Source: Podospora anserina
Taxonomy: Eukaryota
Assembly (NCBI GenBank): GCA_017654855.1
Contig: CM030335.1
Span: 2,728,001-2,792,000, forward strand
Length of the DNA stretch: 64,000 bases
Direction of reading: 5' to 3'
Shown piece by piece: positions 28,621 to 58,708 of the stretch. Every line of letters begins with the position of its first letter. Positions within the stretch are counted from its first letter, which is position 1. The notes below the pieces were generated by a model. The model searched no databases. It saw only the letters and a program-made list of their open reading frames with translations, and was not told the origin of the DNA. Position numbers and translations under genes: made by a program.

Positions 28621-29737
28621 ATGGGCTGGGCAAAGGGATTATTAGACTATCAACCCCCTAAGCAGCAACCCCCTCACATCAACACAAGACAAGAACCAGT
28701 ATTTTCAGCATCAGACATCCCCTCCCTCTGTCAAGACACATGCCGTAACGTCACCCCCCGACCTTCCTCCCCATTCCCCGCTAACCCTGTCCCCAGTCCA
28801 AGCCTACACCAAAACACAACAAACAGGCAAACAACCTCTCCTCTGCCAAAGCCCCGGCTCAGACTTTAGAGCCCTGCACTCCAACTGCAAAACGTGCTGC
28901 GCCCGCTACGTGTCCAACGTTGACTCGCTCGAACGGGCGAATAAAGCGCTGTACGAAAAGTTTGGGACGTATCTTGACTATTGCGAGGCCTTGGACGCCT
29001 TTGCGGTGTTTACCCCTGATCCGGCGGCGGTGGGGAGTGCTGCTACGACGGGAAGGGTGTATGCGGCCACTGAGTTGGCGGTCGTGACGGCTACTTTTAC
29101 GGTTACTACTCAGACTGTGGGGGTTAGGGCTACGGGGGTGGGGGTGGTGGTTGAAGGGGGGGATGATGGGGGGCAGAAGGTTAATACGGGGGTTATTGTT
29201 GGGGTGGTTGTTGGGGCGGTGATAGCGGTGATTGTGGTTGCGGTGATGGGGGTGCTGTTTTTGAGGGGGAGGTATAAACGGCGGGTGAAGGCTCTGGGGA
29301 AGGATAGGGGCGGGAGTAGCAGTGGGGGGAGTAGTACTACTATTGGGAATGATGTTGGGGTTGTTGAAGTGGAGAACAAGGAGATGGTGATTGCAGAGCT
29401 GGATGGGACGCCGGTGGTGAAGAGGGCGGAGATGGATGTTGAGGGGGGTTATAAGGAGCTGGATGTGGAGTTTGGGTATGGGGAGTTGGACGTGATGGAG
29501 AAGAGATTGTCAGAGAATGGGGAGAGGTACGGCGTGGATAGAGAAGAGATTAAACAAACCAGTAACAAAGAGAGAGGTGAAAGGGAAGATGAGGAAAACG
29601 CCGATGATGCGGGCGGTATGGTTGGGAAAGAAGAGCGGGCGGATCAGAATGGAGGACAAACAACGAAGAGCAAAAGGACATCAGCTGACATCGCACAAGT
29701 GGAAGAAATAACATATCAGACTAGTCACGAGAGATGA
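28621..29737 (+). CDS. Receptor-like family paralog P1: 6-Cys ectodomain, TM helix, acidic E[LM]D tail repeats; intron 28745-28796
   Basis: IPSLCQDTC|LQAY...LLCQSPGSDF...NCKTCC...FGTYLDYC; TM GVIVGVVVGAVIAVIVVAVMGVLFL-RGRYKRR; tail AELDG..RAEMDVEGGYKELDVEFGYGELD. Confidence 0.75.
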
Positions 29738-29899
29738 GAACATGAAGGTCAATCTTAGAAAAAGGCGACAAGGATATTTATAAGGCTTACTGTCCTCCAA
29801 GAAACACACACAAAATCAGCATAATTTGGGAGAAAGGCTGCCTAAGTAAGTAGCAAAAAGAAATAGATATGAATTCATCTATTTTGGCAAAAGATGAAG

Positions 29900-30018
29900 A
29901 CATACAACATCAGGGATTCCCCAGTCGTCACCGACCTGAGTACTGGTCTGACCCTTAACTGCTTGATGAGGGGAGAGCGGACGGGATCCCGTATTTTCAG
30001 CTAGGTATGGTCGTATGT
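29900..30018 (-). rRNA. 5S rRNA gene (divergent isotype A)
   Basis: 119 nt, ACATACGACCATACC...CCCGTCCGCTCT...AGTACTCAGG..GTGA..CTGGGGAATCCCTG.TGTTGTATGT, with a T4 tract shortly downstream. Confidence 0.93.
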
Positions 30019-30595
30019 GACGGTTCAGTGTGAAAATGAGACTTTTGTGTACTTGGTAGCATTAGATGGATATACCCCATGAAATTTACATTTATATTGG
30101 AGGAGACATCCCGAGAGAAATCAGCACTTAAAAGGAATATCGAGGAAAGGGAATAATCTAGAAAGCAAAGAAGGCTTTTGACATCGGACTTTACAGGACC
30201 TATGATCGAGTCCGAACACCGCAGGCATAAATCTGCCTGGCCTTCCAACCAATCCTACAACTGAAACGAGGTAGACTAACTACATAGACTTGGATTTCAC
30301 TTGCGGCGAGCACCTGGACCCCACCCTATGGATTAAATCCTAGTGGTCTATCGCTATGGCTGCTCGCTTTTAACTCTTAAACTTTACATAGCCTGTGAGG
30401 CTATGTTTTTGAGATGTCTGTCTATTGGTTCTGTTTTTGTAGAGTCCGAGGTCTACCAAACTATGGACTTCAGGCGTATTGTGTTTGACCCTCCGCTCGG
30501 TCTTTTAAGAGACCGGCGCCCGAAGTCAATTGCTGAACAAGATAGCTCAAATAGCCCAACTAGATATTTTTTTGAGAGGACACTTCACTAATACT

Positions 30596-31592
30596 ATGAC
30601 TGTCGCAAGAGAAAAAAGATACAATACCATGGTATTATCTCCAGCAATTACCGTATGGCTGCTGGGCAGTTTGCGGTATGTTCATGGCCATATTGCATTG
30701 ATTTTCAGCAAGATACTGAATAACAGGATTTCCAAAAAGCGCATACAAAGAAGCCCAAATCGACGACAACTTCCCCAGCATATGCAACCCAGAATCAGCA
30801 TATCAAATCAACTACAAGAGCTGCGATCTCTGCTGCGCTATGAACCAGCGGTACCATGACATCGCCGAGTCGAAGGATGTGGAAGTGTATTTGGAGGAAA
30901 TTTTCGGTAGCTACAACCGACACTGCCTTGACTACCAGAGCGGCGTTACAGTCACCGAGATAATTTCCAGAACAATTACTACTGCGACATCCAAATCTAC
31001 TGAGCCAGTTCTTCCCGGTCAATTTTCTACCACGGCCTCGGTCTCTGTTTCAATTTCTGACAGCTCCATTTTCCCCGAGACAACCAACTCCGATCTTTCA
31101 TCCAACGGCACCTTTTTCAACAGCAGCGATAGTCCAGCCAACAGTTCTGGCTTTGGTTTACATCACATGATCGTCACAGGTGTCTGTTCTGGAGCAGCAG
31201 CGCTTCTTGTAGGTTGTCTGGTATACTGGCAGCGCCGTCGGAGAAGAAGCCAAGGGCAACACTCGGAGCACCAAGCAAAACAAAAAGAAAAGGATCTAGA
31301 GAGCTCTCTCAAATGTCAGTCTATCATTGTAGATGTCGATGACAGTTCCATCAGGGATACAATCACCTTGGTTGGGTTAGACGGTGGCTCTTGGATGGAG
31401 AAAAATGGCAGTCCGCCGCCAAGAGTAGAAATGGATATTGACTCTGGGGCCTGTGAGTTGGACTTGGATAATGGTCATGGCGAGATGATCGTTGAGATGA
31501 GTTTACGGGTAGAATTGAGTACAGAGAGTGGGTATGGAGAGCTGGAGGGCTCTTTGAGTGGAACGAGGCCGGCGGCGTGGAACCAGGGGTGA
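30596..31592 (+). CDS. Receptor-like family paralog P2; intron 30676-30726; start unresolved (nearest ATG at 30596 is out of frame with the first Cys exon)
   Basis: LPYGCWAVC|G..SAY...ICNPESAYQINYKSCDLCC...IFGSYNRHC; Ser/Thr stalk; TM MIVTGVCSGAAALLVGCLVYW-QRRRRR; tail RVEMDIDSGACELDLDNGHGEM...VELSTESGYGELEG. Confidence 0.65.
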
Positions 31593-31668
31593 CTGGCACG
31601 GGAATGGAGGAAAGCACAGGCAAAGACTTTCGGAGTAAAGAGGAAAAACAGTGTAAAGTAGGGTAGAT

Positions 31669-32424
31669 TCATCGGTTTCCCGCGTTCAGTTTCGAATGCT
31701 CATTGGGAGGCTGAACATCCATCTCGCTGTAGCCACTTCCCAAGTCCAACTCGCAAGCCCTCTCCTCAACCTCCATCTCAGTTCTAGGATTTCCCTCTAT
31801 TTCCCGTATCATAGGTGAGACCTCTGCCTTTATTTCTGAGGGCCTATCAACCTCTGCAGTGGTAGATTGCGATTCGAGGTCTTTCTTCCTCAACTCCCGC
31901 CGTTTGCCCTCGGCCTTTTGCTCCAACAAGCGGGTGCGCTCGACCTTATCTCCAGAGCAGTTTCGATACGCAGTTACGATGCAAGCGAGAAGCAGTATCC
32001 CTCCCACCACGCCGAGAACTGTGCCAATAATATGCGCGAGAGTGAAACCGGAGCTGGATTGTGGTTCAGGTCTGTTGGCATTGGTCCCAGAGACACCATT
32101 GAAGTCATTGCAACGATTGGTGTACTCTCCAAATATGGAAACCAGCGTTGCGTTTATGCTGTTGGCTGTTTTATGGATATCGTTCGTCTGAGTTGTTGAG
32201 CAACAGACCAGACAATTCGAGTAATTGATCTGGTAGGAAGATTCGGGTTTGCAGTATTCTGGAAATGTCTCGAAGAGTCGGACTTGCTGGTAGGCTTTGT
32301 CTGTAGGTTTTCTGGTCAATTGGGGTTGAGGAACACAACTGCCGGATAAAGACATACTGCAGACCTCCCAGCATGGGGGCGGCAAATCTCGGAACTCCAA
32401 TGTTATACCGTTAGGATCACTCAT
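31669..32424 (-). CDS. Receptor-like family paralog P3; intron 32301-32357
   Basis: LPPPCWEVC|NKAY...YCKPESSYQINYSNCLVCC...IFGEYTNRC; TM IIGTVLGVVGGILLLACIVTAY; tail IREIEG.PRTEMEVEERACELDLGSGYSEMD. Confidence 0.75.
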   Translation of the reverse strand: MSDPNGITLEFRDLPPPCWEVCSMSLSGSCVPQPQLTRKPTDKAYQQVRLFETFPEYCKPESSYQINYSNCLVCCSTTQTNDIHKTANSINATLVSIFGEYTNRCNDFNGVSGTNANRPEPQSSSGFTLAHIIGTVLGVVGGILLLACIVTAYRNCSGDKVERTRLLEQKAEGKRRELRKKDLESQSTTAEVDRPSEIKAEVSPMIREIEGNPRTEMEVEERACELDLGSGYSEMDVQPPNEHSKLNAGNR

Positions 32425-33252
32425 GATATCGAAAGGTTTTTGGAGATAGAGTGAGGAAGAAGATTTGATGGGGAGTGGGCGTTAGGAAGCCGAGTGGACA
32501 ATCCTGAACATACGGATACAGATGGACCATGGAGCTCACATGAATCAGCCGACCTCTATCGGTCTTCAGAGGAAACTCAGCCCCGAAGCATTCACCGAAG
32601 ACATATCGACAAGGCTAGATGCCACATGTGGGAAAGATATAATAAGGTAAGTATCAATGATAACAGCACGATGTTGCGTTGCAATCTAAGAGTTGGGGGC
32701 CAAGTTCACCATCGCGAATGATATATAGTAGGTAGGTAGTGCTTAGCCGGGCGAAGGGCAGCTGACGTCAGTACCCGACTGAACTATACAATTGTGGCTG
32801 CTGTAGAATCTCTCAGGGGTTTAGTGCCCGGTGCTTCATTGTACTTGCTGGTTGCAAGACTGTTAACTGGGTGAGAAAAGCCAGGAGTACTCTACAGACG
32901 AGGAAAGGAATGACGGTGTATGTGGAAGTTTGGATACATTAGTCTAGCACTGAGTCTATGAGGATTCTGCAGCTTTTCTCTCTTCCAAATTCTCGTTACT
33001 TCAAATGCATCTGTTCAGCTTCGAGATACCTTAGACAGCTCTACACCCTTGGTTAGTGACCGAGACAGAGAAACCTCACGTCCCTTTTCCAGACAAAGAG
33101 GCTGGGGATACCCGAGGTTTTTCAGGGCGAGGTGGTATTATTCAGGCAGGTGGATGTTCATTCCTTCCTGCTCAATATCGGTGGTCTGACTGTGTCTCGT
33201 AGCCGTTTGTTCTCTGATCAAGTAATAGCCATGAACTCTAACAAACTCTATC

Positions 33253-33371
33253 ACATACGACCACAGACAGTAGAAAGCTCGGGATCCCGTCCGCTCTCCC
33301 CTAGATAAGCTACTGATCGCCAGACTAGTACTCAGGTGGGTGACCACTGGGGAATCCCTGGTGTTGTATGT
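33253..33371 (+). rRNA. 5S rRNA gene (isotype B)
   Basis: 119 nt, ACATACGACCACAGACAGTAG...GGTGTTGTATGT followed by a T-run terminator; TAATA about 30 nt upstream. Confidence 0.96.
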
Positions 33372-33951
33372 TTTTGCAATTTTTGTTGGTGTCTGTGCCC
33401 CACTTCAGGGGGCGGTCAGGGGTTAGAGCTCCACATTGTACTGGCGCCAGGTGCCTGCTGCCGCTGATGTTTGTAGCTTGCAAGCTTTGTGTTAGATATC
33501 TAGTAAAGCTGAGCTATATGGTACGTAGGTTTGAAGTTTCGAAGGTTAAACAGTTAGGAATGTGGCGTGGAGCTAGGACAACACGCTGCACCTAGATCAA
33601 GCACGCGGAGGTAACTGCCGTGAATATAACAAGTGCGGAACAGATCAAGTCACCGAGATTTTACCATTAAATCATTAAGTTTCCGTAGTGATGAAAGGGA
33701 TGGCATTGGTGTTTGTAGATGCGGGGCGCCTGGTGTGTAATATATCCTGCAGGCTGGCAACTACAGCCTGATATATCGGAATAGCTTTCGCTGGGTTTCT
33801 GACCTTCTTCTCAAACCTTCTACTCAAGCATGCCCCTAGTATTGTCAGTTTCGTGGGGTTCTTTACACATCCCCGACCTTAAAATCGCCTCCTGGTTTTC
33901 TTCTTTGATAACCCCAACGCAAAAAAAAGTAAAGCTTGTTCCCTGCCCAAA

Positions 33952-34461
33952 ATGAACTCTGAATTCAGTCAAGTCCGAACAACACACCCAAACTATGACA
34001 TAAATTCGACGACTCTCAGTCCCCATGCTAACACCCAAAACGAAGCGGTCGGTTTGGGGACGCTCTCCAACTCTCAACTCATAAGTGTCATTATTGGCTC
34101 GTCAGCTGCGGTCATCATAAACCAGTGTCTGGTTGCAGTGTGGTGGTGCAAATACAGGCGTAGACGATCGATATCGTCACACCATGCTGAAGCAAAACAG
34201 AAAGACGGTATAGGATTAGACGTGGAAAAGAAACTGGAAACAACGATGGGTGGAGATTCGCTAGCCATCCATGAGCTGGATGGAACGCCGATACGTGAGG
34301 TAGATGGGAAACCGGGGTCTAGGGTAGAGATGGATCTTGGACATGGGGCCAGTGAAATGGATGTGGTGTTTGGGTACGTGGAGTTGAGTCAGGGCTTTGG
34401 GTCTAGAAACCCTGAGACTTTTGGAAGAGGAAAAGATAATAACAAGGAGAAGGACGCATGA
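33952..34461 (+). CDS. Receptor-like family paralog P4, lacking the Cys ectodomain (truncated or stalk-only)
   Basis: TM LISVIIGSSAAVIINQCLVAVWWC-KYRRRR; HHAEAKQKD resembles P2 EHQAKQKE; tail IHELDGTPIREVDG..SRVEMDLGHGASEMDVVFGYVELS. Confidence 0.6.
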   Translation: MNSEFSQVRTTHPNYDINSTTLSPHANTQNEAVGLGTLSNSQLISVIIGSSAAVIINQCLVAVWWCKYRRRRSISSHHAEAKQKDGIGLDVEKKLETTMGGDSLAIHELDGTPIREVDGKPGSRVEMDLGHGASEMDVVFGYVELSQGFGSRNPETFGRGKDNNKEKDA

Positions 34462-35048
34462 TCTTTGCATAGGTGCCTACTTTGCCGTTAAGCTGCTTGC
34501 ACTTCAGCCCGCATTTGTCAACCATCATACTGTTCCAGAGGAGTACCCGCTTCCTCTAGGACCACAAACAGAATTAGATACAGATGAAATTTGCTGAGCT
34601 TCAACAGAATCTTGAGAGGCGCGTCGAGTAGCGCAAGGTTGCCTCAAAGCACTATGTGTAACCGCAAAAGCCAGTATTGGGGGCGCAGTATCAATGGGAA
34701 TCGGGTAGACTTAGAGGACCAGTTACGTCGCTTAGACTGGATGCCTTGTTTCTTTCAATTTCTCCAACCAGTGTGAACGTTAAAGAAGGCTGCCCATGTG
34801 ACCTCAGGGACTTGTGATAGTCTCCACATCAGTCAATCCTCGACAAATTAATGCTACGCCCGTAGGTCAAACTGATCTCAGGTGATAGATGGATACATGT
34901 TTCTTTTCTGGGCTCATGTTTCTTATATCCTTATAGACTTGTGGTCACCAAGACTGGTATTTCTGCTGAAAGAGACACCGCGCCGCTACCTTTTTCTGTC
35001 AGAATTGGCCATCCCTTGACTTCTATAGCTTTGGTTTCCCCTCTGCAG

Positions 35049-35810
35049 ATATGCTTTCGCTGCTAAACGACTATCAAGGGTGCCATGGAAGACTGCCTCC
35101 ATGGTTCGAGACAACCAGACAGAGTTGTGTGAGAAAGCCCTGGATTGGCAACCTGGATACCTCACATGCAAGGACTGCGTTCAAAAACTGTATCCTCTCC
35201 CAAACGTCGAGATCGTTGATGTTGAGTTTAGGGCTTTTCTTGAACCATGCCTAGACCAGCTTCTCCAAGTTCAGAACACCGAGGCTCGTGGGACAAGTAC
35301 TCCATTGCTGAAACAGTCTGTTCTTACTCTCAGCCCCAGCAGCATCATCACACCAACATTGACTTGGGAATCGTCCCCAGTATTTACTACCTCTCGACAG
35401 TTAACCTACTTCACAATGGCCACACAGATCCCAACAAGTACGACAGCGTCCCTTCCAGGCAAGTCAGATTTGCTTAGAAACCCCCATTATTCCCTATCAT
35501 GAGCGATTGCTGACTGGGTTTATGTCAGAAATGCAACGTCATAATCCCAACCCCCAACCCAGGCCTTTTAGCGGGTTCAATCCTTGGTACCATCCTCTTA
35601 CTGTCAATCACTTCCGCGGTTTGGTTCTACCGTCGCCGGAAACAAAAAGAGGGTGCCATTTTGTCACCCGAGAATAGATCGCAAGTCAACGAGTTACAAA
35701 CAAGGGAGAGGGTGGTGGAGCTAGGGCAAAGAGAAGTTGATGGGTAGTCAGCTTTGGGCTCGGTGCATGAGTTGGATGCGCGGTCCAATTCTCTAAGAAC
35801 AAACAAATGA
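35049..35810 (+). pseudogene. Receptor-like family paralog P5, probably degenerate
   Basis: ELCEKALDWQPGYLTCKDC...FRAFLEPC, then a Ser/Thr stalk. The TM exon (GLLAGSILGTILLLSITSAVWFY-RRRK) does not splice cleanly in frame. The tail VNELQ..VVELG.REVDG*SALGSVHELDA has an in-frame TAG at 35745. Confidence 0.55.
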
Positions 35811-38730: not shown

Positions 38731-38759
38731 AGTTGTTGTTGTTGTTGTTTTTGTTGTTG
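38731..38759. repeat. Short imperfect (GTT)n microsatellite
   Basis: Direct reading of the sequence. Confidence 0.7.
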
Positions 38760-41700: not shown

Positions 41701-42053
41701 CTTTCCTCCCAGAAAACACCTCAAAAAGCAGAGAGTCCCTCCCAACCAGCCTGGCCCTGATGAATGCTGTCCCTGATATCCCCAAGTCCCTGAACCCCGT
41801 GAAAATGCCGATCAATTCGTTGCGTACGGGATGCCGACCCCTCCTGAGAGTGGTGGCCTTTCCCCACCACGCCAGTACTGGCATAGTTGTACCGATAATC
41901 TGTTGTTGTGTGGTGATTGTTGTTTTTTATGTTGGCGGTTGCGTATATATGTGTTGTGAATATCCTTTGCCTTGAGGCGTCCCTCTCTTGTATCCCTATT
42001 TTCCCTTGCCCTTGGTGTCCAAACAATCTCCAAGCGAAACAAAAAATCCATGC

Positions 42054-43041
42054 TTATTGCTGTGGACCATAACCAGGCGAGCCAGGCATGGACAGCGGCG
42101 TCTTCGGGTACTCGGTGTAGCTACCAGAGTCCGAGCAGGCCGCCGAGTGTTCGAGAGAGTGTGACAGAGGCGGAGTCTGTGTCAGGCACCCATCAGCAAC
42201 GGTGATCTTCTTGAGAGTTTTTACGGGCCACGATGAAAGTTTTGAAGAGGAGGAAGATGTGGAGGAGGTGTAGTAGCTTGGTTCCGAGAGGCACTCACAT
42301 TCGGGGTCAGATGCTCGAAGGGAGGAGGGTGGCCTCCGTGCATGGGCATCCCTGGGAAGAAGCCGTTGTTGTAGCTATCCAGGGCTTGCATGGATGGCAG
42401 AGAAATGGTGTTTGAGTACTCGGCGAGTGTTACGACTGGATCTTGGGGCATTTGGTGGAAGTTGTAGGGAGTGAACATCTCGTCGCTGGTAGGAACAGGG
42501 TAGCCAGTCTGGTAGTAGGGGCCCACTGGGCTGGTGGATCGATCTCTGTCATCCTCGTAGCTGTGGCTGAAGAGGTACTGATCGTGCTGTCCATAGGATG
42601 GAGTTGTGAAGTGAGGAGCGACAACCTGTCTGCCGGTGGCAGGTGGCGATTGCTTCCGTGCCTTGGTCGCTGGGGCGCGCTTCGCAGGCTTGGGTGCTGG
42701 GCTTGTCTTCTCACTGCCGGGAGAGGGGGATTCGTCTGATACTCCGGCCTTGCGCTCCAGCTCTTCCATGCGCTTCTTCAACTTCTTGCCTGTACCCAGC
42801 TGTTTAGTGTTTGCACTTGGAGTGTCGTCCCATGAGGCTACGTACGATAGTTGCGCTGGGCAATGCGGTTCTGTATCCTCCTCCTCTCGGCAAGGTCTGA
42901 GATCTTGGTCCAGTCCTCGTCGGGGTTGGCTGAGGGGCTGAAGGCGCTGCTGGTGCCGTGCGAGAATTGTCTTGCGGGCGCCATTGGGGCCTGCTGGTAA
43001 TGGGTATATGTGTGCGGGTTGAGCTGGAACATGCTGGCCAT
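42054..43041 (-). CDS. bZIP transcription factor; introns ~42790-42845 and ~42177-42299
   Basis: SAFSPSANPDEDWTKISDLAERRRIQNRIAQRNYR|KKLKKRMEELERKAG forms the basic region and zipper. The final exon is TPPLSHSLEHS...YPKTPLSMPGSP...QQ*. Confidence 0.9.
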
Positions 43042-49000: not shown

Positions 49001-52000
49001 GGCTAGTGTGTAAGGTCACCAGATCTTGACCATCATTTATCGAATGGTGTTTCTTGCCCCCAAGTTTCAGGTAAAGATCTTCAACCACCCCCTCGGGGAC
49101 CATAGCGACTTTCCATCTGCTTTCCAAGTGGTGAAACTTTCTGCAGAAAAATAAGAGCTGTGCCGCTGCCATCCCCGGATTGTTGATGCCTAGAGAGATG
49201 TGATATGAGATCTGCCCGCTCATGCATGGAAAAAACACAAAGTGTTGATATCTTACTGGGAACCACGGAGCATGCATTTTGCTAGAACCAACTCCCCGTG
49301 ATAGGCGGTAAGGCAAACCTCTAGATGGGTGACGTGCCAGCTATTCAGGGGTTCAAGGAGGCCATGGTGGGTGGTTCGGATAGTTGGGTTTGTCTCTCGT
49401 TGACGGTGAAATAGGGGTCTCGACCGGCCGAGGCACGGCGCATCGGCTGATGATCTGCAACAACCAAAGACTTGACACTCGACGCGTCCCTCCTCCCCAT
49501 TGTGGATAGATGTTGGCGCCCTCGACCGGTTTCGGATTGTTCAACAGACTGGTTCTGGCAGTCAGGGGTAACAACACCCCGTTTCCCGCTCAATGAAAAG
49601 GGGGTTGCGCCACCACAACCATCTCCAGGTCCCAGGTCTGCAAAGGTCTTGTTCCCGAAAGGATATGCTTATTGCCTGCAGCGGTTAAGGCTCTCTCGGG
49701 GGTGGGAGGGGTGGGTGAGTGCGTGTCAGCCGGAACCTGCTGCTTGGTGACGGCATCAGTCAGCATCTGCAGGGACTCGACCTCATGCAGATTTAATTGA
49801 ACCCCAAGAAAGAAGCACAGTTTTCAGCGTTGGGGTTCATGGGGGAAATAGACAATACGAAGAGGAAAGAAGAGGAAGTTCATAGTCCCGGCGGTGAACG
49901 TTACCGTAACAAGGCCGAACCACACGGGACAAGACAAGAGGATGACCCGAAGTTTCTGTCGTCCCAGCTTTGGGCGGCCGCTCCAGTTCATCTTGGGCCG
50001 AGATGTTGTTTACGTGTGAGAGGCTATACCTTGCTCTGATATATGGTTGGCGGGAAAAGGCCACAACCATCCTGTCGGGTGGACAAGACATCGACTTGAC
50101 CGCAAGGCCATTGCTTCATACCAGCTCCAACGCCTTGCTGTCAGGTCTAGAAGTCATAACCCATCTCGAAAACAACCTCTGACTACTTGTCAGGCAAGAT
50201 TTCCGTCGCGGGCCGGCTGTGCCAGAGTAACAGCTCAAAGTTCGTCGGCCCACGAGTCATCCGGTGAGTGAGTCGAGATGAATTATGTATTACTGATACA
50301 TTTCCATACATAGCACCCAACGAAGCCCGTGATGGATGTTGCGGCCGCCGACGCTGCTATTCTTGAGCCTCATCATGTTGGGACCCACCGCTGTCCAGGC
50401 ACCCGCATCGTCTCTTCGTCTGCTACCCAGTGACTGTGGTCCTCCGAAAGCCGTCACTTGACGCTAGTTACCCGACAATTCATTGTCCATGTGACTGGAG
50501 GAAGCCGTTGAGGTTGGGGAAGGCGTGATATGATACTACAGCAACCCTTCACGGGGACACCCGGCTGCCCGCGTTAACGGAAGGAAATCAAGCCAGACTC
50601 AAAGACGCCACTCCCTTGCCATCCACGAGTAACCGTCGAGAGCTTTAGTCAGAAGGGTGTATCGGTAATGGGATCGGTCAGCAAGACGACAATAACTAAA
50701 GTCCTCAACTCAGATTGTCGTTTGATAGACTTTGTTTGATGGGGCCGTCCGCATCAAAAGATACCACCAATCAGAACCTCTCGCTCGTGTAAATGAGCCA
50801 GGGCCAGAATCCAGTCCCATGTCCGTTTGGTCAAGCCAAAGAGGGCAAAATAGCCGCTTTCGGTAACCTCAAAGATAGCCCCACCGTTTTGGGAGATAAC
50901 AATACCTACCGGAGGCTCCGAATTGCTAAAAGGTTTCGAAAAGACCCGACAAATACAAAATGTTGGAACCTCCCACAGGAAACGCAGATGTCTCAGCACA
51001 TGAGAATGATGGCCTCATACCAAGGACTTTGATGGCAAGTATGAATAACGGAGGGGAGCATTGGGTTGGGGATGAGCGCACACCATCCGTGCAATCAACA
51101 CCCCACCCCCAAAACCGAGAATGTAGCGGTACCTCGACTGGGAACTGACAGCGGTTGCTCATCATGCCCATGCTCACACCTTCATAGGGCTGGGTGGCTT
51201 TGCCTCCTTCTCCACAAAACGAAGCTTGACGTGTAAGCTCTGCACTCCCCCACGACGCGGATGCACTTCCGCAACAAGTGTCTGGCAGCAGTATCAGTAT
51301 TTGAAATCCACTCCGTGGCTGTTGATACTCCAAGGTGACTGAGTTCTGGCGGCCGAGTGCGGTTTGACTCGCCAGGACAACCGTTCTTCGGCGTTACATT
51401 GCTCGCCTGCTCCGCCGACCCAGAAGGCTCCCAGGGTTGATGCCCAGTTTGGGCTGTATTGGCGAACGGCTGGCGATAACAACGACGAAGGCGTCGAGCG
51501 CTCAGTAATTTACAGACAGCGAGGTGCAGATCTCGTTTGGACAGCGCAGTTTTCCACTTGATCTGGCATGCTTGATAGTGGTTTGGCGGTGTGGAAGAAT
51601 ACCGTGTTCCTCAAACGACTCGGATGTTCATGATGGAGGGTGGTGTTACATGAAGAACCGTGCATGAGTTGCATGAGAGGGTTGAGATGAAGTAACCAGT
51701 ACCGCATGACAGGAACTGGATGCAAGAGGACCTTGCCAACGGGCCGACCTCCAGACAATTTACACATACGCTGAGGATGGATGCCAAGACGTACCTGACT
51801 GCCTCCTGTTAATCCCGTGTTCTAGCGTATCTTGTTGCCATTTCAAATGGAAATCCTCCTGCGTAAGGCTGTTAGCGCAAGCCAGTCGTATATCATTAGT
51901 ATCATCACGTTCATGCTTATTATCATGAAGAGGCCATATCAAACTTGGTGATGGAATTTGAAATGGGCTGCAATGGGACCTTCTCGAGACCCGTGCAGCT

Positions 52001-55000
52001 GGTGAATTGATGCCTGGATGCAGGCCCAAATATCCAGTAACGCCCGAGGCGGTCAATGGCATCGGCAGCGTCATTAGAAGGTGGGTGTGCCTGTCTACCG
52101 TCGGGCGGTTGTGATGGTGCAGTTGAACTGACCTCTGGGAGCATATCCGGCGCGCAACACCATGCTAAGAAGCTTCCACCACCGAGGAACCGGAGCGCTT
52201 GGGCCAATCATATGGCGAGAAAGAACGACTTCTGTGCCTCTCCCGCTTTCCCGTCCTCACAGCTCTCGTACCCGATCCCTCGGAAGGGCGGCGTCAGGCC
52301 CTCGCACCTCCCCGTGAAGCAGCACACCAGGACGCAGTTATCACTAATCCCAAGCCATGGACCAAGAACCCTCCTGGTTGCGTTGGTTTTGAGCGCATTT
52401 CGTAGTGTGATAGAGCGACAGACTGGCCATCCAGAGCCGGGTATTGCGGTGACTGGAGACCGGTGTTCTTGTTTTGAGTCCCAGAAAGCAAAGAGCTGCA
52501 TCAATAACTCAAACGCCACGAGAGGGGAGAGCGGCGTCTATTGCGTGGGACAGGATATGAAGTGCCTGTGCAACAGCTTGTGAAACGTGATACCAGGAGA
52601 GGGTGTCGTCGGCAGTTCTTGATGGGCCATGGTTCTGGACGGAAAAATGCGAGCCTTGGCTGTGGAAACTGGCAATATTCTGGAGCGCCTGAACACATCG
52701 CACAAGCGGGCGTTTTTGTGTGACCTTCGTTGAAGGCAAGCGCCGTGAGGGACCGCGTCTACCCCGCCGCTGGTGAACTTGTCCGAATCCCCGATGGCCA
52801 CGCACCCGGCAGAAAGTCGGCCGAGCACCTAGGGCAGAGTGCTTTTCGTGCCAAAAGGGGTGTTGATGGACAGTCAGGGTAGTCCCGTATCTCGACGAGT
52901 CGTAGGGCCGAACAGCTGTCCAGGGTCGTTCGTGGGTAAATTAGCAAGCGAATATCTCGGTGGTACTCGTGAGGATGTTGAACCTGTGACAGAGACAGGG
53001 CAGAGCTGTATCAAAGGCCGAGGGTTAGGCGGCTGCTTGGCGACAGCGAGGCTCAGGCGGACCACGGGGCTGGAGCTGCACAGCTCTGGCTCTGTTGATG
53101 TCGATGGGAGATCGCAGACAGAGAAGCGGGCGTCGCATGTCGCAGTGCAGGTTGCAGTCTGCATTGGCGTTCCCCAGAGGGGCGCAGCATCTTTTGCAAT
53201 TCCCGCCTGTTCTGGGTGCACCAGCACCAACGTCCACCAGGAAAGAGCGGGATTCCAGCAGAAGGGGCGGAGAGACAGGGGTCCAAGGCCCCCTTGTCCA
53301 TCGCTGCAGAATGCGGCACGCCCAGTGCCAGCGCCAGCGGGGTGGGGCACGCCAAGGGCCCGCTGCTTCCCGCGTCCCAATGTCTTGGCCCTCGACACCT
53401 TTCTTGGGTGTTCTTGGAATCTCCTGAGGTCTTTTTGAAACTTCCCAATCAGGAAAACATATTCGAATCAGGCAAAGTGCGGCTTGACCCCTCGGTCACC
53501 AAAAAGGGTCTTGTTCAGAGTTGCCATAACGGACTGTCTGCAAGGGCGCTTTGAAGACCACCAGGGATCACAGCCCGTACCCTCCGAACAACCAAGCAAC
53601 AATCCAAGCCATCTCCGAATGCGCAATTCTGACGACGACGACCACCACCACCATTTCGGACTACTATCCCCGCTGATCACGCACCCTCACGTCAACATGG
53701 CTGGCGGGAATTACGTGCACATGGCTGCTGCCCCTCGCCCGGCCCCGCGGCGCCCGCTCTGTCCCGTTTGCCGAGAAAGATGTGATATCAAAGTCACAGC
53801 CACCAATCTGATATTCGAGCACCCCGCAGCTACCGGAACCTCTGTGTAACCCCCTCCGAGCCCATCCATGCCATCTTCGCCGTATTCCCCCGCCAGTTGT
53901 TATCACCATCACCACCATCACCGCCATCACCATGATGATGTTGGTGATGAATTGCTCCTAGACCGCCGGATGTTTCCATCAGGGAGGGACGGAAGCAGGC
54001 GACTAGTTTTCGATGTCAGGGCCCCTTTGCCGATGATTATCATGGTGCCCCTCCTCCAAAGCAACATTTCGACCAATGTTCCAAAAGTACAAGTTGGCGT
54101 CGAGGCTGGTGTTACACATGCACATGAGCAGCCCGGTCTCACAGAATCAGGCTGTTGGGTCCCAAGGGCGCACACGCGGCATGGAGTTTTGCAACCGTTA
54201 TCTCCAGATTGACTGGCACTCTCGCTCCAAGGGCCCATGTGCTACGGCTTTGTGATCCGAAGCGGACCTTTCTCCGAACACTTGTCCTACACCTCTTCTC
54301 CCTTCTTGGTCCTTCACGCTCCCATTGCTCCCCTTGGGTATGGTGGTGACGCCACGTGCGGACTACTCGGACTTGAACAACTGGAATAGAAGCTCCGCTC
54401 CCACCTCGGAGTAAGTTGACACGGAGACTTGTCGGATTCCGCTGGATTCGTGCTTTATGACTTGATCTGGCAGCGCGAGCTGGAAACATGAAGCTGGACA
54501 TCACGAGGAGAACAACATTCTATATATCCTCAAAGATGGACTTTTAACAAAAATGAGGTAAGAATCCCATATATCTATCTATCTATCTGATGATAACGTA
54601 AGACCCAAGGCAGTGGAACGCCAACCCCAAGTTTGCTCACAGTCAGAACCCAATCTTATCTTGATCTCCCCATCAGCTCAGCTGAAGAAGGCAAAGCAGA
54701 AATGATTTGGGGGCAGAACGTCAAGTCGGTATGGGGGTAAGGTAAGGTGTGCAACGGTGTAGTTCGGTCGGAAAAGCGGCTGAAAGAAGAGGAGAAGGCC
54801 CCAAAATTCGCCGATGGATCGCAGGTTCGCAGCCCCCAACCGTAACAGTGTAACCAAATGGACACAACGTCCTTCCGTGCACCTACTCTGAGCTCCCAAG
54901 CATCCTGTTCGCTGGCTCGCAACTGGTTCTCCCAGGGCTGTCTCGTTCGTCCGCTCGCTGTCAAGATGTTATTTTCCATGACAGCCTCGGAAGTTATGAC

Positions 55001-56257
55001 CAAGTTTTCGGGTACATCAACAGCATTACATCACAACTTGCTCTCTCAGCTTCAATCTGCAGTGACCCAGGCCACGAGAACTGAGAACTGGCCCGCTGGA
55101 GGGCACGACACAGGGCTGAGTCGCTGTTGTGGTAGGTTGGGAGTTTTTGATCCCGCATGGGTTTACGGAGAAAGAGAGATAAAAGTGCTGGCAGTAAGGA
55201 GCCTGCAGGTTAATCTATGCGGTGTTACTGCCCACCGTTTTGTTGCTCTTTGGTTTCCGGGGAGTGGGTGATTGTAGTCTTGTGACAGGCTCAGTGGGGG
55301 ATGTAACCAACCCAGCTTGATGGGCAGACAGAGACGGTTCGGTTCGAGTTGAGTCACGGCGTCCCTTATGGAGGAATGGGCAAATGTCAAGTTGCGGTGA
55401 GGCGGGCGTTTTGGCGATGGGGTTTGGGGACTGGATGAGGCTGTGTGGAGAAGCGAGGAGAGCCGCGTGATCAGGTTCTTACGAAGCAGTTTGGGAAGGC
55501 TTGGTAAGTTGGCATTTGGGGAGTGTCGTAAAGGTCGGGAATGCTAGATGGCTGTGGTATTTTGACGCGGGGTTGGGGTTGTGTAACTAGATTGGCGAAA
55601 TGAGTCCGTGACCAGGCTCGAGATGACAACGGCATTGCTTTAGAGATTTGGGCAAGGAAGGTTAGGCAACGCAGAGTCTCGGACTGGTTGGAGGGTGCTT
55701 TGCAGGAGGAAACGTTACTTGCTTGCGGGGATGGTGCTGAAAATAGGGAGTTAATTTGAGTAAGGCTGCTGTTGGGAGTATAGTTGCTCTGTTAAGAAAG
55801 TGCATAAGGGGGCCAAGTTCGGTGAGGCCACACAAGCTTGTGGTATGAATTCTATCAAGAAAGCAAGAAGACAAAGACCGTTTTATCCCACGACACAAGA
55901 TTGACGAGCAGGTAAGGTGCCGGAGGAACCATTATATTATATGCAGGCGACCTTGTATTCTACGCTCTAGCTCGCACTTTTATCAGTCATCACGTCTTGA
56001 ATGATGTTGATGTATGAAGTCGGTGCCGTAAGCTTACGACAAGCGTTCTGAGCCCCTGAGCCCCTGATATGGCACCTGGCTCTGAGGAGCGCGTCATCAA
56101 GTTGAAGACATGACATACTTCCCTAAGTTAAGTCGAGAAGATGGAAGTAATGTATCTCAGTTATGTATCTATCCTTTAATCTCCTCTCCATGATCCTTTC
56201 TCTGTGTTTGTGAATATTGCTCTTTCTACCGCTTGCGAGACTTACGATCCTTTGAGC

Positions 56258-57301
56258 TCAGAAGCGATATTGGACTTCAGTACCATGCTCACTCGATCCT
56301 ATCATCTGGGCTTCACCTAGCTCCCATTTTGTGTCAGTCCCCCCTTTAACACTATACAGTTCCCTATATCCAGAATCTACACTCATTTCCACATATTTGT
56401 TCTCATCCTCGCGAACATGATGTTGTCTTCCAACTCCCGGTTTAATATCTTCCTCAATAATGTCAAGCCTAGATGATACCTCCAATTCCCTATACTCAGA
56501 ATCTTCACTCACTTCTGTGTGTGTTGGAACCACATCCATTTCCTTAGCCTGCGCTTCGGTATCGAGCTTAACTCTAGGCGAAGCCTGACCAGATATCTCC
56601 CATATCGAGCTTCCGTCAGTTGCCCGCGCTGATCTCCAGTCTAGTTCTGGTTATTCATCTAGGCCCATATCCCAATTTGCTAGCGCTTGAGTTTTGAGAT
56701 ATGCTCTTGTTTGCTGTCGTGACGATTTGAAGATTTGAAGTGAGACTAGAAAGGCGATGAGAAGTACCCCGGCTGCGGAACCCAGAATGGCGCCTGTCAA
56801 TTATGATGTGTTTAAACTTGAGCCCCCAGACTCAACAATCAGGTCAGGTGGGCCGGTGCTCTCTTTATTGGTAGAATCCGGGCTAGCTGCAGTGGTAATG
56901 GGTGCGGTGGCTGTATTTGCTGGCCTTGAGGTGGCTGTCACGAAACTGATGCCACAGCTGTAAGCTGTGGCTGGCCAGGGCTGTGTGGATGGGGTCAATT
57001 GACAATATCGGAAGTAGTCTCTGAATATATGCTGCAAAGATTCCTCTGCGGTTCCCGGATCGAACTCAAAGGTGCACGAGTCGCATTTGGAATAGTAAAG
57101 TTGATAGAGAGTGTTCAAATCGGAAGTGCACAATCGATCTCCGCCCAATGTTAAGTGCTGGAATGCGGTTTCTATGAAGCGTGAATGTTAGATAATACTC
57201 GATGGAGACAATTAGAGGCCGAGTCTTTGCATACCACAAACTGCCCAGCATTCCGGTGGGAGTAGATTCTGAATCTCTGAGTTGATGCGTGGTGAAATCA
57301 T
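56258..57301 (-). pseudogene. Receptor-like family paralog P6 with two in-frame TAA stops (56801-56803, 56651-56653); intron 57172-57234
   Basis: MISPRINSEIQNLLPPECWAVC|ETAF...LCTSD...YYSKCDSC...IFRDYFRYC; after the first stop the frame continues into a TM (LTGAILGSAAGVLLIAFLVSL) and the tail KEMDVV...YRELEV...VEMSVDSGYRELY. Confidence 0.75.
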
Positions 57302-57782
57302 TTTCTCCCGCGGCCTTCATGATGGGCAATGATCTTTGTCAGGGGGTGCACTCTTGGCCATAGCTTCCTTACTGGAGTATTTAGCAAAGTGCAAGGACTG
57401 CAGAGACAACTGAGATGATGGGAACAGATTTTTGTTCCCAACATAATAATGCCATTGAGTCTAGGATTTGTCATACACTGTCAGCTGATGTGGTCTGGTT
57501 AGGCACCTATTTAGGGAAGTTTGAGGTCACAATTGCAATAGCAACGACTCTCAGCATGTACTCTTTATATTAACATTGTGGGGGCGGGAAATATCATGTC
57601 TCTTCCGCCTCGCTATCTCCCGTACATCTCTAAACTTTGCGCAGCTTCGTTTCGAACCAGCCTAGCTAGATGAAACCTTTAGCTGCCTATAACCAGGTCC
57701 CCGCTCATCTCAAAACGAACTTGCTTCCGCTTTTATCAGGAGCTCGCCTCTTCCCCCTGGCTGGCTTGGGGTTTTCTTGTCT

Positions 57783-58708
57783 TCAATCTTGTCCAGAAAT
57801 CACCTCTAACTCTTCATATCCAGACCTTTCACTCAGTTCGGCGCGTGGAAACATCACCTCCATCTCGCAAAACCCCGGTTCAATATCCATCTCGATTCTA
57901 GGTGGCGGGGGGTCGTCTAATTCGTTGATAGAGATTCCATTCATTTTCTGTGTCCCTTGTGATTCTATTTCGTTCAAAGCCTCCTCTTTCTTGCTGAGCT
58001 GTGATGCTCGTCGACGGTAGCCTGCCAGCTTCCAACACGCCAGTGCAGCCAGCAACAGAACAAAAACGGTTCCGGCACCAGATATTATTCCTATGAGTTG
58101 CAGGGAGGAAAGATGACCGCTACCAAGATCTTGGTTGTCTCTCCCTTGATGGTTGTCGATCTGTTCATTATCAACAGCGTGAGTAGGGGGGTTGTCTTCA
58201 CTTGTTGTTTTCCAGTCAGAGGTCGTTGCTGTTGTTGATGTTGTTGCAGGGTACGTGGTGGTGCTCAAAGCTGTCTCGGTCGGTAATTGAACAATGAATG
58301 GGGGCGAGTCGAGTACTGGCTGGGAAAGATTGCAGTACTTCAATGATTCATCAAAGATTGCCTTCAGTCCCGGATCGGGATTGTTTAGGTTGTATTTGAA
58401 AGCTGTTCCAGCCCAGCAACCATCGGCTGAACAATATGTGCAGGCTCCGACGTTACAGTATATTCTGTCTTGGCCCAAAACACAAACATGACATTGTTTG
58501 TAATGGAACTCAAATTGAGTGGTTGAGATGCACAGTTCAGGAGTGTTTCTGTTTTTTCGGACGAGCTCATGGGCAGTGTCTGGTTGATTTCAGTCGGATA
58601 AATATATTGAAGAGAATGATACAGAGAGGCAACCAAATACGTACCGCATTCTTTCCAGCAAGATGTAGGGAATATCGCGTGGATATCAGGGTCGAGTCCG
58701 CGGCTCAT
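57783..58708 (-). CDS. Receptor-like family paralog P7, with an extra Cys-rich insert; intron 58580-58644
   Basis: IFPTSCWKEC|DTAH...ELCISTTQFEFHYKQCHVC...(YCNVGACTYCSADGC)...IFDESLKYC; Thr stalk; TM LIGIISGAGTVFVLLLAALACW; tail INELDD.PPRIEMDIEPGFCEMEV...AELSERSGYEELE. Confidence 0.75.

What the first reader, a model, noticed from the sequence alone, without database searches (positions are those of the whole stretch)
28621..58708. Seven-member, fast-diverging family of single-pass receptor-like genes in two clusters
Seen in sequence: five copies at 28.6-35.8 kb and two at 56.2-58.7 kb share an architecture that the ORF track splits across exons. It consists of an ectodomain P-x2-C-(W/Q)-x2-C...A(Y/F/H)...C...C-x2-C...F-x2-Y/F...C, a Ser/Thr stalk, one TM helix, a basic stop-transfer cluster and a tail of acidic E[LM]D repeats. 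In P1, P2, P3, P6 and P7 a phase-1 intron falls immediately after the second Cys codon, which is strong evidence of paralogy despite very low identity between cysteines. Copies occur in both orientations and range from intact to ectodomain-less to stop-interrupted, and none shows an obvious cleavable signal peptide. Inference: this is a birth-and-death array of surface sensors with variable ligand domains and a conserved intracellular docking module, as seen in recognition/immune receptor arrays. I do not recognise a described function for it.
Basis: partly seen in the sequence, partly recalled or inferred. Interest (0 to 1): 0.8.

Follow-up and report, generated by a model that had tools for sequence, protein, structure and literature searches.

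The report
Clustered fungal single-pass surface proteins
Seven neighbouring genes of a Podospora-type fungus, three of them damaged, encode small membrane-spanning surface proteins that belong to a large, still unnamed fungal family whose job is unknown.

Summary
Seven copies (P1-P7) share a six-Cys head, stalk, one TM helix, a basic cluster and an acidic E[LM][DE] tail. P1, P2, P3, P6 and P7 have a canonical phase-1 GT..AG intron one base after the second Cys codon. An RNA-type contig shows the P1 intron spliced exactly as predicted, and contigs cover parts of P1-P5.

P6 has two in-frame TAA stops. P5 is frame-broken between stalk and TM. The P2 start codon is one base out of frame. P4 lacks the head.

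The copies are not orphans. A profile found 1091 representative proteins at E<=1e-3. Every named hit is a "hypothetical protein" of Sordariales or a lichen fungus, and no local Pfam model covers the head.

AlphaFold gives a confident three-helix bundle without a specific PDB match. The same head sits in one exon of long Thr-rich proteins ending in a short hydrophobic, GPI-signal-like segment, so it is extracellular.

The immune-array reading is only partly supported. The duplicates are old, and heads do not diverge faster than tails between orthologues. My best reading is a signal-peptide-less, N-out surface glycoprotein with a multivalent cytosolic docking tail. Function is untested.

The parts
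28621..29737 (+). P1, intact. Exon 1 is 28621-28744 and ends one base after Cys2. The intron is 28745-28796 and exon 2 is 28797-29737. The protein is 354 aa: six-Cys head at residues 37-104, TM at 174-192, then RGRYKRR and a tail reading ELDGTP..RAEMDVEGGYKELDVEFGYGELDV.
   Evidence: An RNA-type contig in run X1 joins 28744 to 28797, skipping 52 nt with GT..AG ends. The T. verruculosa orthologue P0003 reads CQDPC-S-QAY across the same junction.
30596..31592 (+). P2. The ATG at 30596 is one base out of frame with exon 1 (open 30600-30675, carrying LPYGCWAVC). The A6 run lies at 30612-30617. The intron is 30676-30726 and exon 2 is 30727-31592. The TM reads MIVTGVCSGAAALLVGCLV, followed by RRRRR. 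This is either a frameshifted 5' end or a homopolymer error.
   Evidence: Orthologue P0002 (T. setosa, 331 aa) is 58% identical in both head and tail. A contig of run X3 covers 30839-31701.
31669..32424 (-). P3, intact, 232 aa. Exon 1 is 32424-32358, the intron 32357-32301 (57 nt, so the ORF track reads through it) and exon 2 32300-31669. The stalk is short.
   Evidence: P0158 (P. pseudocomata) is identical in 69 of 69 head residues, and P0008 (T. verruculosa) is 78% identical. A contig of run X2 covers 31689-32301.
33952..34461 (+). P4, 169 aa, without the head. It has a 42-aa N-terminal segment, a TM, YRRRR and a full tail reading HELDGTPIREVDGKPGSRVEMDLGHGASEMDVVFGYVEL.
   Evidence: The A4 profile scores 2e-11 on the TM and tail only. 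Contigs of X1, X2 and X7 cover 33810-34602. It is 100% identical to library protein P0009.
35029..35747 (+). P5, a pseudogene. A degenerate head lacking the first two Cys, plus stalk, lies in ORF 35029-35502. The TM with RRRK lies in ORF 35514-35747 in a different frame. The tail is cut by a stop after ..ELGQREVDG. No exon 1 was found.
   Evidence: Low-depth contigs of X1 lie at 35110-35455 and 35592-35742. One weak joint runs 35455 to 35526 (70 nt, readable as GC..AG) and does not bring the TM into frame (my own frame arithmetic).
56258..57301 (-). P6, a pseudogene. Exon 1 is 57301-57235, the intron 57234-57172 and exon 2 57171-56258. Two in-frame TAA stops fall at codon 146, just before the TM, and at codon 196. 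The basic cluster is weak and the tail degenerate.
   Evidence: The A4 profile scores 5e-8 on the head.
57783..58708 (-). P7, intact, 286 aa. Exon 1 is 58708-58645, the intron 58644-58580 and exon 2 58579-57783. The head carries an extra Cys-rich insert (five more Cys). The tail reads ELDDPPPPRIEMDIEPGFCEMEVMFPRAELSERSGYEELEV. The protein ends 33 aa earlier than P0007.
   Evidence: P0007 (319 aa) reads CWKEC-D-TAHE across the predicted junction and is 97% identical in the head.
29899..30018 (-). 5S rRNA gene between P1 and P2. It is context, not part of the family.
   Evidence: 87.4 bits.
33253..33372 (+). 5S rRNA gene between P3 and P4. It is context, not part of the family.
   Evidence: 88.4 bits. 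Very high contig depth.

Best explanation
P1-P7 are a locally duplicated, partly decayed sub-branch of a very large, unnamed Pezizomycotina family of small single-pass membrane glycoproteins.

Shown:
- The shared architecture and the shared intron.
- Splicing of P1.
- Three damaged copies and one copy without the head.
- Family size, and the absence of a local Pfam model for the head.
- A confidently predicted three-helix-bundle head with six conserved Cys.
- A tail in which E[LM] dipeptides are about four times over-represented, within a P-x-[AS]-E-[LM]-[DEP]-[GA] context.

Inferred:
- The proteins insert without a cleavable signal peptide. The TM acts as an N-out, C-in signal anchor (type III, as I recall for yeast Fus1 and Opy2).
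- The disulfide-stapled head and the stalk are outside the cell.
- The disordered acidic tail is cytosolic. It offers several copies of one short linear motif to an unidentified cytosolic partner, either a signalling adaptor or sorting machinery.

Functionally I place them with fungal surface sensor or anchor proteins of the Mid2/Wsc/Opy2 type, not with polymorphic recognition receptors. The Podospora copies share derived features: W/Q after Cys1, loss of the family's K-A-Q-L-H-x-D box, and an R-x-E-M-D..E-L-D..G-Y-x-E-L tail.
For: Family membership:
- Profile A3 found 1091 proteins at E<=1e-3, 42 at E<=1e-10 and 7 at E<=1e-30 among 1.84 billion representatives.
- Of the 152 proteins held, 64 carry the full six-Cys pattern, 100 carry the C3-C6 pattern, and 90 have the C3-C6 pattern and a TM helix; in 89 the pattern lies before the TM.

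Head:
- The AF2 model of P0008, the P3 orthologue, used a 72-row alignment. Blocks of ten residues across residues 11-100 average pLDDT 73-96, mostly above 90. Helices span 16-31, 44-58 and 64-99.
- C39, C52, C55 and C86 are invariant in the alignment.

The head is extracellular:
- All 11 metagenome loci examined, of 19 returned, have the same domain in one ORF.
- It is preceded by KR/RR-D in 10 of the 11 and followed by a Ser/Thr/Pro-rich stretch.
- In the 9 that reach a stop, the ORF ends in a hydrophobic, GPI-signal-like segment.

Topology:
- In 87 of 89 family members the 15 residues after the TM are more positive than those before it (mean +4.78 against -0.21).
- Only 4 of 59 have a hydrophobic 9-mer before Cys1.
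- All window copies show the same charge bias.
- The X1 contig runs unbroken from 28568 through the P1 ATG, so no upstream exon is missing there.

Tail:
- 490 E[LM] dipeptides were seen against 127 +/- 9 in shuffles of 134 tails, and 124 of the 134 tails have two or more.
- The tail is disordered in the model, with pLDDT about 50.

Expression: the P1 intron is spliced, and contigs lie over parts of P1-P5 in four runs from four studies.

Age: each intact copy with a head has an orthologue in another genus or in a sibling species.
Against: - No experiment bears on location, topology or function.
- A 110-180-residue N-terminal domain translocated without a signal peptide is unusual.
- N-glycosylation sequons on the N-side are no more frequent than composition predicts: 172 seen against 176 +/- 11 expected. 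P1 has none.
- The tail partner is unknown and the motif matches no recognition motif I can name.
- "Sensor" rests on analogy of architecture only.
- The RNA status of the runs is the tool's guess. Only the spliced P1 contig shows it directly.
- The tree of heads uses 65 columns and is poorly resolved, so a single origin of the seven copies is not shown.
Confidence: 0.55

Rival explanations
1. The array is a birth-and-death set of recognition or immune-type receptors. The heads diversify to bind varied non-self ligands, and the tail is a conserved signalling module.
For: The copies are clustered in both orientations and mix intact, head-less and broken forms. Paralogue heads are only 19-39% identical. 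Branches are long for P2/P3 and P6/P7. P7 has an extra Cys-rich insert.
Against: Between orthologues the head is as conserved as the tail or more so: 54/49, 58/58, 78/61, 100/96 and 97/94%. Within the Podospora species complex heads are 97-100% identical. The duplicates predate the Podospora-Triangularia split. Tail blocks of paralogues are barely more conserved than heads, 23-43% against 19-39%. No NLR, HET or other known recognition domain was found in the ORFs scanned between and beside the clusters.
Confidence: 0.1
2. The proteins are passive structural or adhesive surface glycoproteins related to CAP22-type wall proteins. The head acts in the wall or matrix, and the tail serves only as an endocytic or sorting signal rather than for signalling.
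For: The same head occurs in long Thr-rich proteins that end in a hydrophobic, GPI-signal-like segment. The Atlas places the head of P0033 nearest to "CAP22 family" clusters, with scores of 0.80 and 0.75, which is a weak lead. CAP22 is described as an appressorial cell-wall protein (passages read in PMC6064131). The Podospora tails contain Y-x-E-L units, which fit the YxxPhi form of sorting signals (a motif I recall).
Against: The CAP22 link could not be tested. No CAP22 sequence was to hand, and no model in the local Pfam copy matched these heads. A tail motif conserved and multiplied across the family argues for a specific partner. In most family tails, and in several window copies, the Y position is not Y.
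Confidence: 0.2
3. The topology is reversed or the proteins are internal. The Cys-rich N-terminal domain is cytosolic and binds a metal through CX3C and CX2C, and the acidic C-terminus is lumenal.
For: There is no signal peptide. The spacing CX3C...CX2C could form a four-Cys metal site. Sequons are not enriched.
Against: The charge bias in 87 of 89 proteins puts the C-terminal side in the cytosol. The same domain lies behind dibasic sites and ahead of GPI-like ends in secretory-type proteins.
Confidence: 0.04
4. The whole cluster is decaying. Even the open copies are functionless relics that are still transcribed at a low level.
For: Three of the seven copies are damaged and one lacks the head. 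Contig depths over the genes are low, 2-15. In sibling species only the C-terminal half of P1 is annotated (P0004, P0005).
Against: P1, P3, P4 and P7 keep open frames. The heads of P1, P3 and P7 keep all six Cys, and all four keep the TM, the basic cluster and the tail motifs. Orthologues in other genera keep them too. The P1 intron is removed precisely.
Confidence: 0.08

Closest known systems
Fungal single-pass O-mannosylated surface sensors (Mid2/Mtl1, Wsc1-3, Opy2, Fus1); recalled knowledge, plus Pfam Mid2 PF04478 and SKG6 PF08693
   Same: Small proteins with a head or Ser/Thr-rich stalk outside, one TM helix, a basic juxtamembrane cluster and a disordered cytosolic tail that recruits partners. 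As I recall, Fus1 and Opy2 also lack a cleavable signal peptide.
   Different: The head is a different domain, a six-Cys three-helix bundle rather than WSC or the Opy2 Cys knot. Pfam Mid2 and SKG6 match only 3 and 4 of 72 members (best E 0.02 and 3.4e-6), and the other matches of this kind lie on the stalk and TM stretch. The tail motif P-x-A-E-[LM]-[DEP]-[GA] is not one I know from those proteins.
CAP22 (Colletotrichum appressorial wall glycoprotein; Pfam 38.1 PF28223, as named by the Atlas)
   Same: It is the nearest Atlas cluster to the head of family member P0033, with scores of 0.80 and 0.75. It is a fungal extracellular protein (PMC6064131 and PMC8896106, passages only).
   Different: The score lies in the range that shuffled proteins reach a third of the time. 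CAP22 is described as secreted and wall-located, not as a TM protein with a cytosolic tail. Homology could not be tested here.
CFEM domain proteins (PF05730)
   Same: A fungal extracellular Cys-rich helical domain that starts P-x-C-x3-C. CFEM-labelled clusters are Atlas neighbours of P0002 at 0.87.
   Different: The head has six conserved Cys, not eight, with different spacing after Cys2. CFEM is not among the 25 Pfam families matched by most of the 72 members; every family not shown matched 3 members or fewer. No CFEM structure appears among the Foldseek or VIA rows shown.
Unnamed Thr-rich fungal proteins with a GPI-signal-like end that carry the same six-Cys domain (metagenome loci L001-L019)
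   Same: The head domain is the same: 44-80% identity to family member P0062 over about 75-110 residues. A dibasic-D-x-T-[IV]-[VT]-P lead-in comparable to the R-[RD] seen before Cys1 in many TM-type members is present.
   Different: The head lies deep inside a long ORF, at residue 271-507 of the seven ORFs that are not cut off at the locus start. There is no intron after Cys2, no TM with basic cluster and no acidic tail. These proteins end in a hydrophobic, GPI-signal-like segment.

Membership tests
Unnamed Pezizomycotina six-Cys-head / TM / E[LM]-tail family (defined here) | Head pattern C-x3-C..C..C-x2-C..[F/L]-x2-[Y/F]-x(2-4)-C | tested here: met
   P1, P2, P3, P6 and P7 match the full pattern. 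P5 matches from the third Cys on. P4 lacks the head.
Unnamed Pezizomycotina six-Cys-head / TM / E[LM]-tail family (defined here) | One TM helix followed by a basic cluster, then a tail with two or more E[LM][DEP] motifs | tested here: met
   The C-flank charge is +2 to +6 in all seven copies. Tail blocks were aligned.
Unnamed Pezizomycotina six-Cys-head / TM / E[LM]-tail family (defined here) | K-[AP]-Q-L-H-x-[DE] box after the basic cluster | tested here: not met
   Q[LI][HD] occurs in 60 of 134 family tails. It is absent from the tails of P1-P7 by my reading. The window copies are therefore a derived sub-branch.
CFEM (PF05730) | Eight-Cys pattern recognised by the Pfam model | tested here: not met
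   Six conserved Cys. No CFEM row for P0002 at E<=10. CFEM is not among the 25 most-matched families of 72 members.
CFEM (PF05730) | CFEM helical-basket fold | tested here: inconclusive
   No CFEM chain appears among the rows shown by Foldseek (0 hits at E<=1e-3) or VIA-align (best Z 7.0, generic bundles).
Mid2-like sensors (PF04478) | Match to the Mid2 model above its cut-off | tested here: not met
   3 of 72 members match, best E 0.02. No Mid2 row appears for the window ORFs.
CAP22 (PF28223) | Match to the PF28223 model | not testable with these tools
   The only link is an Atlas lead of 0.80. The local Pfam copy returned nothing for heads of either architecture.
Type III (N-out signal-anchor) membrane proteins | No cleavable signal peptide, and a positive C-terminal flank on the only TM helix | tested here: met
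   from sequence only. The P1 5' end is continuous in an RNA-type contig. The actual topology was not tested.
Polymorphic recognition or allorecognition receptor arrays | Ligand domain evolving faster than the signalling part, with high divergence among close relatives | tested here: not met
   Head against tail identity is 54/49, 58/58, 78/61, 100/96 and 97/94%. No codon-level or population test was possible.

The most novel reading that the evidence does not exclude
The window exposes a Pezizomycotina-wide receptor system that has never been named. It consists of signal-peptide-less N-out single-pass proteins. A new disulfide-stapled three-helix head senses an extracellular cue. A cytosolic tail signals through multivalent P-x-A-E-[LM]-[DEP]-G motifs bound by a dedicated, still unknown adaptor. 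The same motif recurs in tails of other single-pass proteins, such as the gene at 19750-21015 with about ten [PS]-E-L-x-G-Q-G repeats. The Podospora array would be a retooled sub-branch, with a new tail grammar and a new intron, used for a lineage-specific biotic or developmental signal.
Probability: 0.2. Interest if true: 0.7.

Novelty: new variant of a known kind. Interest (0 to 1): 0.45.

Why it matters
Filamentous fungi have few characterised surface receptors apart from GPCRs and the Wsc/Mid2/Msb2/Sho1 set. This family counts more than a thousand 50%-identity clusters. It has a confidently predicted head with no specific structural relative in the PDB searches made here, and a strongly repeated tail motif. 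No name for it turned up in the searches I could make.

Defining what binds the tail motif, and what the head does in both its TM-anchored and GPI-type settings, would open a widespread piece of fungal surface biology. The Podospora cluster offers a tractable model organism. Its natural allelic series comprises intact, head-less and broken copies, and two small clusters can be deleted together.

If the family proves to be merely structural wall or matrix proteins, the finding is ordinary.

Tried and rejected
**Domain and fold searches**
- Pfam found nothing above a cut-off on the window ORFs or on P0002.
- Pfam on 34 and then 72 family members gave only matches to TM or stalk-type models such as TM_ErbB1, TMEM154, Psg1 and SKG6.
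- A profile search of PDB sequences matched only TM segments of unrelated receptors.
- Foldseek against PDB gave 0 matches at E<=1e-3.
- VIA-align wide gave a best Z of 7.0 on generic helical bundles, which is below the tool's own noise bar for helical models.
- The Atlas structure rows all had TM below 0.5.

**Literature**
- Searches for Podospora Cys-rich TM proteins or IDC2, for gene numbers Pa_4_7240-7270 and for tail-motif strings found nothing about these genes. One hit concerned Pa_4_7260, a different gene.
- CAP22 papers gave no sequence features.

**Expression**
- No RNA holder is listed on record for the stretch.
- Parts of the stretch without contig cover, such as 30148-30675 including the P2 5' end, say nothing.
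- The P5 joint has depth 2.3 and side 29, which is too weak to build on.

**Intron conservation across the family**
- The metagenome scan pattern CN[ND]A[YN][LI]EA spans Cys2, so genes with the intron could not be found.
- The intron-less state of the 11 loci examined therefore cannot be generalised.

**Other**
- The tree of heads is poorly resolved: 44 of 68 inner branches are open.
- No genome is held for the window.
- The records behind the metagenome loci are not held.
- Supplements of the bioRxiv transcriptome paper were not read. They may hold expression values for these genes.

Full report
**What is there.** Stop-to-stop ORFs and three-frame translations show seven related genes. P1-P5 lie at 28.6-35.8 kb and P6-P7 at 56.2-58.7 kb, with orientations +,+,-,+,+ and -,-.

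Five copies start with a short exon that ends one base after the second Cys of P-x2-C-(W/Q)-x2-C:
- P1: IPSLCQDTC
- P2: LPYGCWAVC
- P3: LPPPCWEVC
- P6: LPPECWAVC
- P7: FPTSCWKEC

Each exon is followed by a 51-65-nt intron. The introns begin GTAACG, GTATGT, GTATGT, GTATGC and GTACGT, have a CTAAC-, CTGAA- or TTGAC-type branch site, and end in YAG. All are phase 1.

Splicing the models by coordinates gives P1 354 aa, P3 232 aa and P7 286 aa. Each has a six-Cys head, a stalk, one TM helix, a basic cluster and an acidic tail.
- P4 (169 aa) has only a 42-residue N-terminal segment before the TM.
- P6 has two in-frame TAA stops, at codons 146 and 196.
- P5 has its head and stalk in one frame and its TM in another. 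No canonical intron joins them, and a stop falls early in the tail.
- The P2 ATG (30596) is one base out of frame with its Cys exon, at the A6 run 30612-30617. The Triangularia setosa orthologue P0002 reads through. This is either a real frameshift or a homopolymer error.

**More than chance.** A profile of 72 proteins from other fungi (A4) was run against 1586 six-frame ORFs of the window. E-values ranged from 5e-30 (P1) to 9e-8 (P5 head). The copies do not resemble each other at DNA level: one search found no direct repeat of 30 nt or more. Their heads are 19-39% identical and their tail blocks 23-43%.

**Whose genome.** The closest named proteins are "hypothetical proteins" of these species:
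- Triangularia setosa and T. verruculosa
- Cercophora samala
- Podospora comata and P. pseudopauciseta, where only the C-terminal half of P1 is annotated
- P. pseudocomata, whose P0158 is identical to P3 in all 69 head residues

The window therefore comes from the Podospora anserina species complex or very near it.

**Expression.** No run is on record as RNA. Four runs were guessed to be RNA and were laid on 28300-36200.
- One 499-nt contig in X1 (depth 15.3) joins 28744 to 28797. It skips exactly the predicted 52-nt GT..AG intron of P1.
- That contig is continuous from 28568 through the ATG, so P1 has no missing upstream exon that could carry a signal peptide.
- Contigs also lie over P1 (29355-29795), P2 (30839-31701), P3 (31689-32301), P4 (33810-34602, three studies) and, thinly, P5.
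- A weak joint in P5 (35455 to 35526, readable as GC..AG) does not bring the TM into frame.

**The family is large.** Profile A3 found 1091 proteins at E<=1e-3, 42 at E<=1e-10 and 7 at E<=1e-30 among 1.84 billion representatives. Of the 152 proteins held, 64 show the full six-Cys pattern, 100 show the C3-C6 pattern, and 90 have the C3-C6 pattern and a TM helix; in 89 the pattern lies before the TM.

The typical member reads as follows:
- about 24 residues without a hydrophobic core
- [VI]-P-A-V-C-Y-D-x-C-N-N-A-Y-L-E-A-Q-x-x-G-K-x-P-x-L-C..S-x-F..Y-x-x-C-x-x-C..L-x-P-x-F-x-x-Y-I-D-Y-C
- a Ser/Thr stalk, the TM helix and RRRR
- K-A-Q-L-H-x-D-S
- several x-E-L-[DEP]-[GA] units, often ending A-E-L-P-A-R-E-P-V-G-S-E-M-D

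Every named hit is a "hypothetical protein". Sordaria brevicollis and Copromyces each have two members on one contig, so clustering is not unique to this window. One protein, P0045, looks like two neighbouring members fused in a gene model.

**No known domain.** Pfam found nothing for the head in the window ORFs, in P0002, or in 34 and then 72 family members. Only models of TM segments or mucin-like stalks matched. The PDB sequence profile search matched TM segments only.

**Structure.** The AlphaFold model of P0008, the P3 orthologue, has ten-residue block means of pLDDT 73-96 across residues 11-100, mostly above 90.
- Three helices span 16-31, 44-58 and 64-99.
- A helix follows at 111-163, which runs through the TM segment.
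- The tail is disordered, with pLDDT about 50.
- Cys18 and Cys22 lie on helix 1, Cys39 in the loop, Cys52 and Cys55 on helix 2, and Cys86 on helix 3.
- That arrangement would allow three stapling disulfides. This is inferred, because no coordinates were available.
- Foldseek found no PDB match at E<=1e-3.
- VIA-align's best Z was 7.0 on generic bundles, below the tool's noise bar for helical models.

**Leads on relatives.** The Atlas put P0002 near CFEM-labelled clusters at 0.87. It put the head of P0033 near "CAP22 family" (PF28223) clusters at 0.80 and 0.75. All of these are below the tool's bar.

CFEM membership fails on Cys number and on the Pfam model. The CAP22 link could not be tested. 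I read only passages of PMC6064131 and PMC8896106, which describe CAP22 as an appressorial wall protein and a candidate effector.

**The head is an extracellular module.** A metagenome scan returned 19 loci, and I examined 11 of them. In all 11 the six-Cys domain lies in one ORF. Ten of the 11 have a dibasic site before it, such as L-S-K-R-D-[DE]-T-I-V-P-A-V-C. In the eight ORFs that extend well upstream, long Thr-rich repeats or a second Cys-containing region lie ahead of that site.

A Ser/Thr/Pro-rich stretch follows the domain in all 11. In the nine ORFs that reach a stop, the sequence ends in a short hydrophobic segment, which looks like a GPI-anchor signal. Pfam names none of these proteins. 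They have no intron after Cys2. However, the scan pattern spanned Cys2, so intron-bearing genes could not have been found.

**Topology.** In 87 of 89 family proteins the C-terminal flank of the TM is more positive than the N-terminal flank (+4.78 against -0.21). Only 4 of 59 have a hydrophobic 9-mer before Cys1. All window copies show the same bias.

Together with the GPI-type relatives, this points to an N-out, C-in signal-anchor protein. Against that, sequons are not enriched (172 against 176 expected), and translocating so long an N-terminal domain without a signal peptide is unusual.

**The tail.** E[LM] dipeptides number 490 in 134 tails, against 127 +/- 9 in shuffles. In 124 of the 134 tails there are two or more. 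The context is P-x-[AS]-E-[LM]-[DEP]-[GA].

The window copies lack the K-A-Q-L-H box. Instead they share E-L-D-G-x-P..R-x-E-M-D-h-x-x-G-x-x-E-L-D-h-x-x-G-Y-x-E-L. Library protein P0010 has a similar tail.

A different single-pass gene 8 kb upstream (19750-21015, P0160) has about ten [PS]-E-L-[HQYA]-G-Q-G repeats and ends Y-E-M-D-G. The motif is therefore used beyond this family.

**Evolution.** Head against tail identity between orthologues is as follows:

| Pair | Head | Tail |
|---|---|---|
| P1 / P0003 | 54% | 49% |
| P2 / P0002 | 58% | 58% |
| P3 / P0008 | 78% | 61% |
| P3 / P0158 | 100% | 96% |
| P7 / P0007 | 97% | 94% |

The head does not run ahead of the tail. In a 65-column tree, P2 and P3 group together (SH-aLRT 92), P6 and P7 group on long branches (82), and P1 sits in the family polytomy. 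The shared intron and the shared tail grammar argue for one sub-branch, but the tree cannot show it.

**Verdict.** The interpretation as an immune-like, fast-diversifying receptor array is not supported.

These genes are an old, partly decayed local array. It belongs to a very large, unnamed family of fungal single-pass surface glycoproteins. The family has a head domain that the local Pfam copy does not cover and a multivalent tail motif.

The most likely mode of action is a surface sensor or anchor whose tail docks a cytosolic partner. That rests on architecture only. Function is unknown.

Noticed in passing
window 29899-30018 (-), 33253-33372 (+), 61462-61581 (-): Three 5S rRNA genes (87-90 bits) lie in 64 kb, two inside cluster 1 and one about 2.8 kb beyond the P7 start. 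The similarity between the first two ends at the gene borders (124-nt inverted pair, 80%).
   Followed up: partly
window 19750-21015 (+): Another single-pass membrane protein ORF (P0160, 422 aa, no Pfam match). Its cytosolic tail holds about ten [PS]-E-L-[HQYA]-G-Q-G repeats and ends Y-E-M-D-G. It uses the same kind of E-L-x-G motif as the family tails but has a different N-terminal part.
   Followed up: partly
window 61808-62050 (-): An 80-aa ORF with a Ser/Thr/Pro stretch, a weak TM, a basic cluster and R-E-M-D hits the TM part of the family profile (E 1.5e-4). It lies next to the third 5S gene. It may be an eroded eighth copy or an unrelated TM gene.
   Followed up: no
window 28518-28567: A trinucleotide repeat that reads as runs of Cys, Val or Leu in the three frames lies just upstream of the P1 start. 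The read-laying tool masked it as a repeat, and the P1 transcript contig starts at its edge.
   Followed up: no
window 57783-57785 against P0007: P7 stops after ..EELEVISGQD. The near-identical library protein P0007 runs on for 33 more residues, so the C-terminal end differs between close relatives.
   Followed up: no
loci L001, L007, L010, L014, L017, L018, L019: These are long fungal ORFs with Thr-rich repeats. They carry a conserved block W-G-C-x-P-G-[YF]-V-C-N-x-P-K-P..Y-Y-P-x-T-[ED]-G-Y-F-N, then a dibasic site, the six-Cys domain and a GPI-like end. No Pfam family matches. This looks like an uncharacterised wall-protein architecture.
   Followed up: partly
window 21955-27864 (+): A 1969-aa uninterrupted ORF, rich in coiled-coil-like sequence, lies directly upstream of P1. 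A preprint calls gene Pa_4_7260 of P. anserina a Cik1-like protein. Whether that gene is this ORF was not checked.
   Followed up: no
window 36000-56000: The 20 kb between the two clusters holds only short ORFs. The ten ORFs of 136-318 aa that I scanned have no Pfam match.
   Followed up: no
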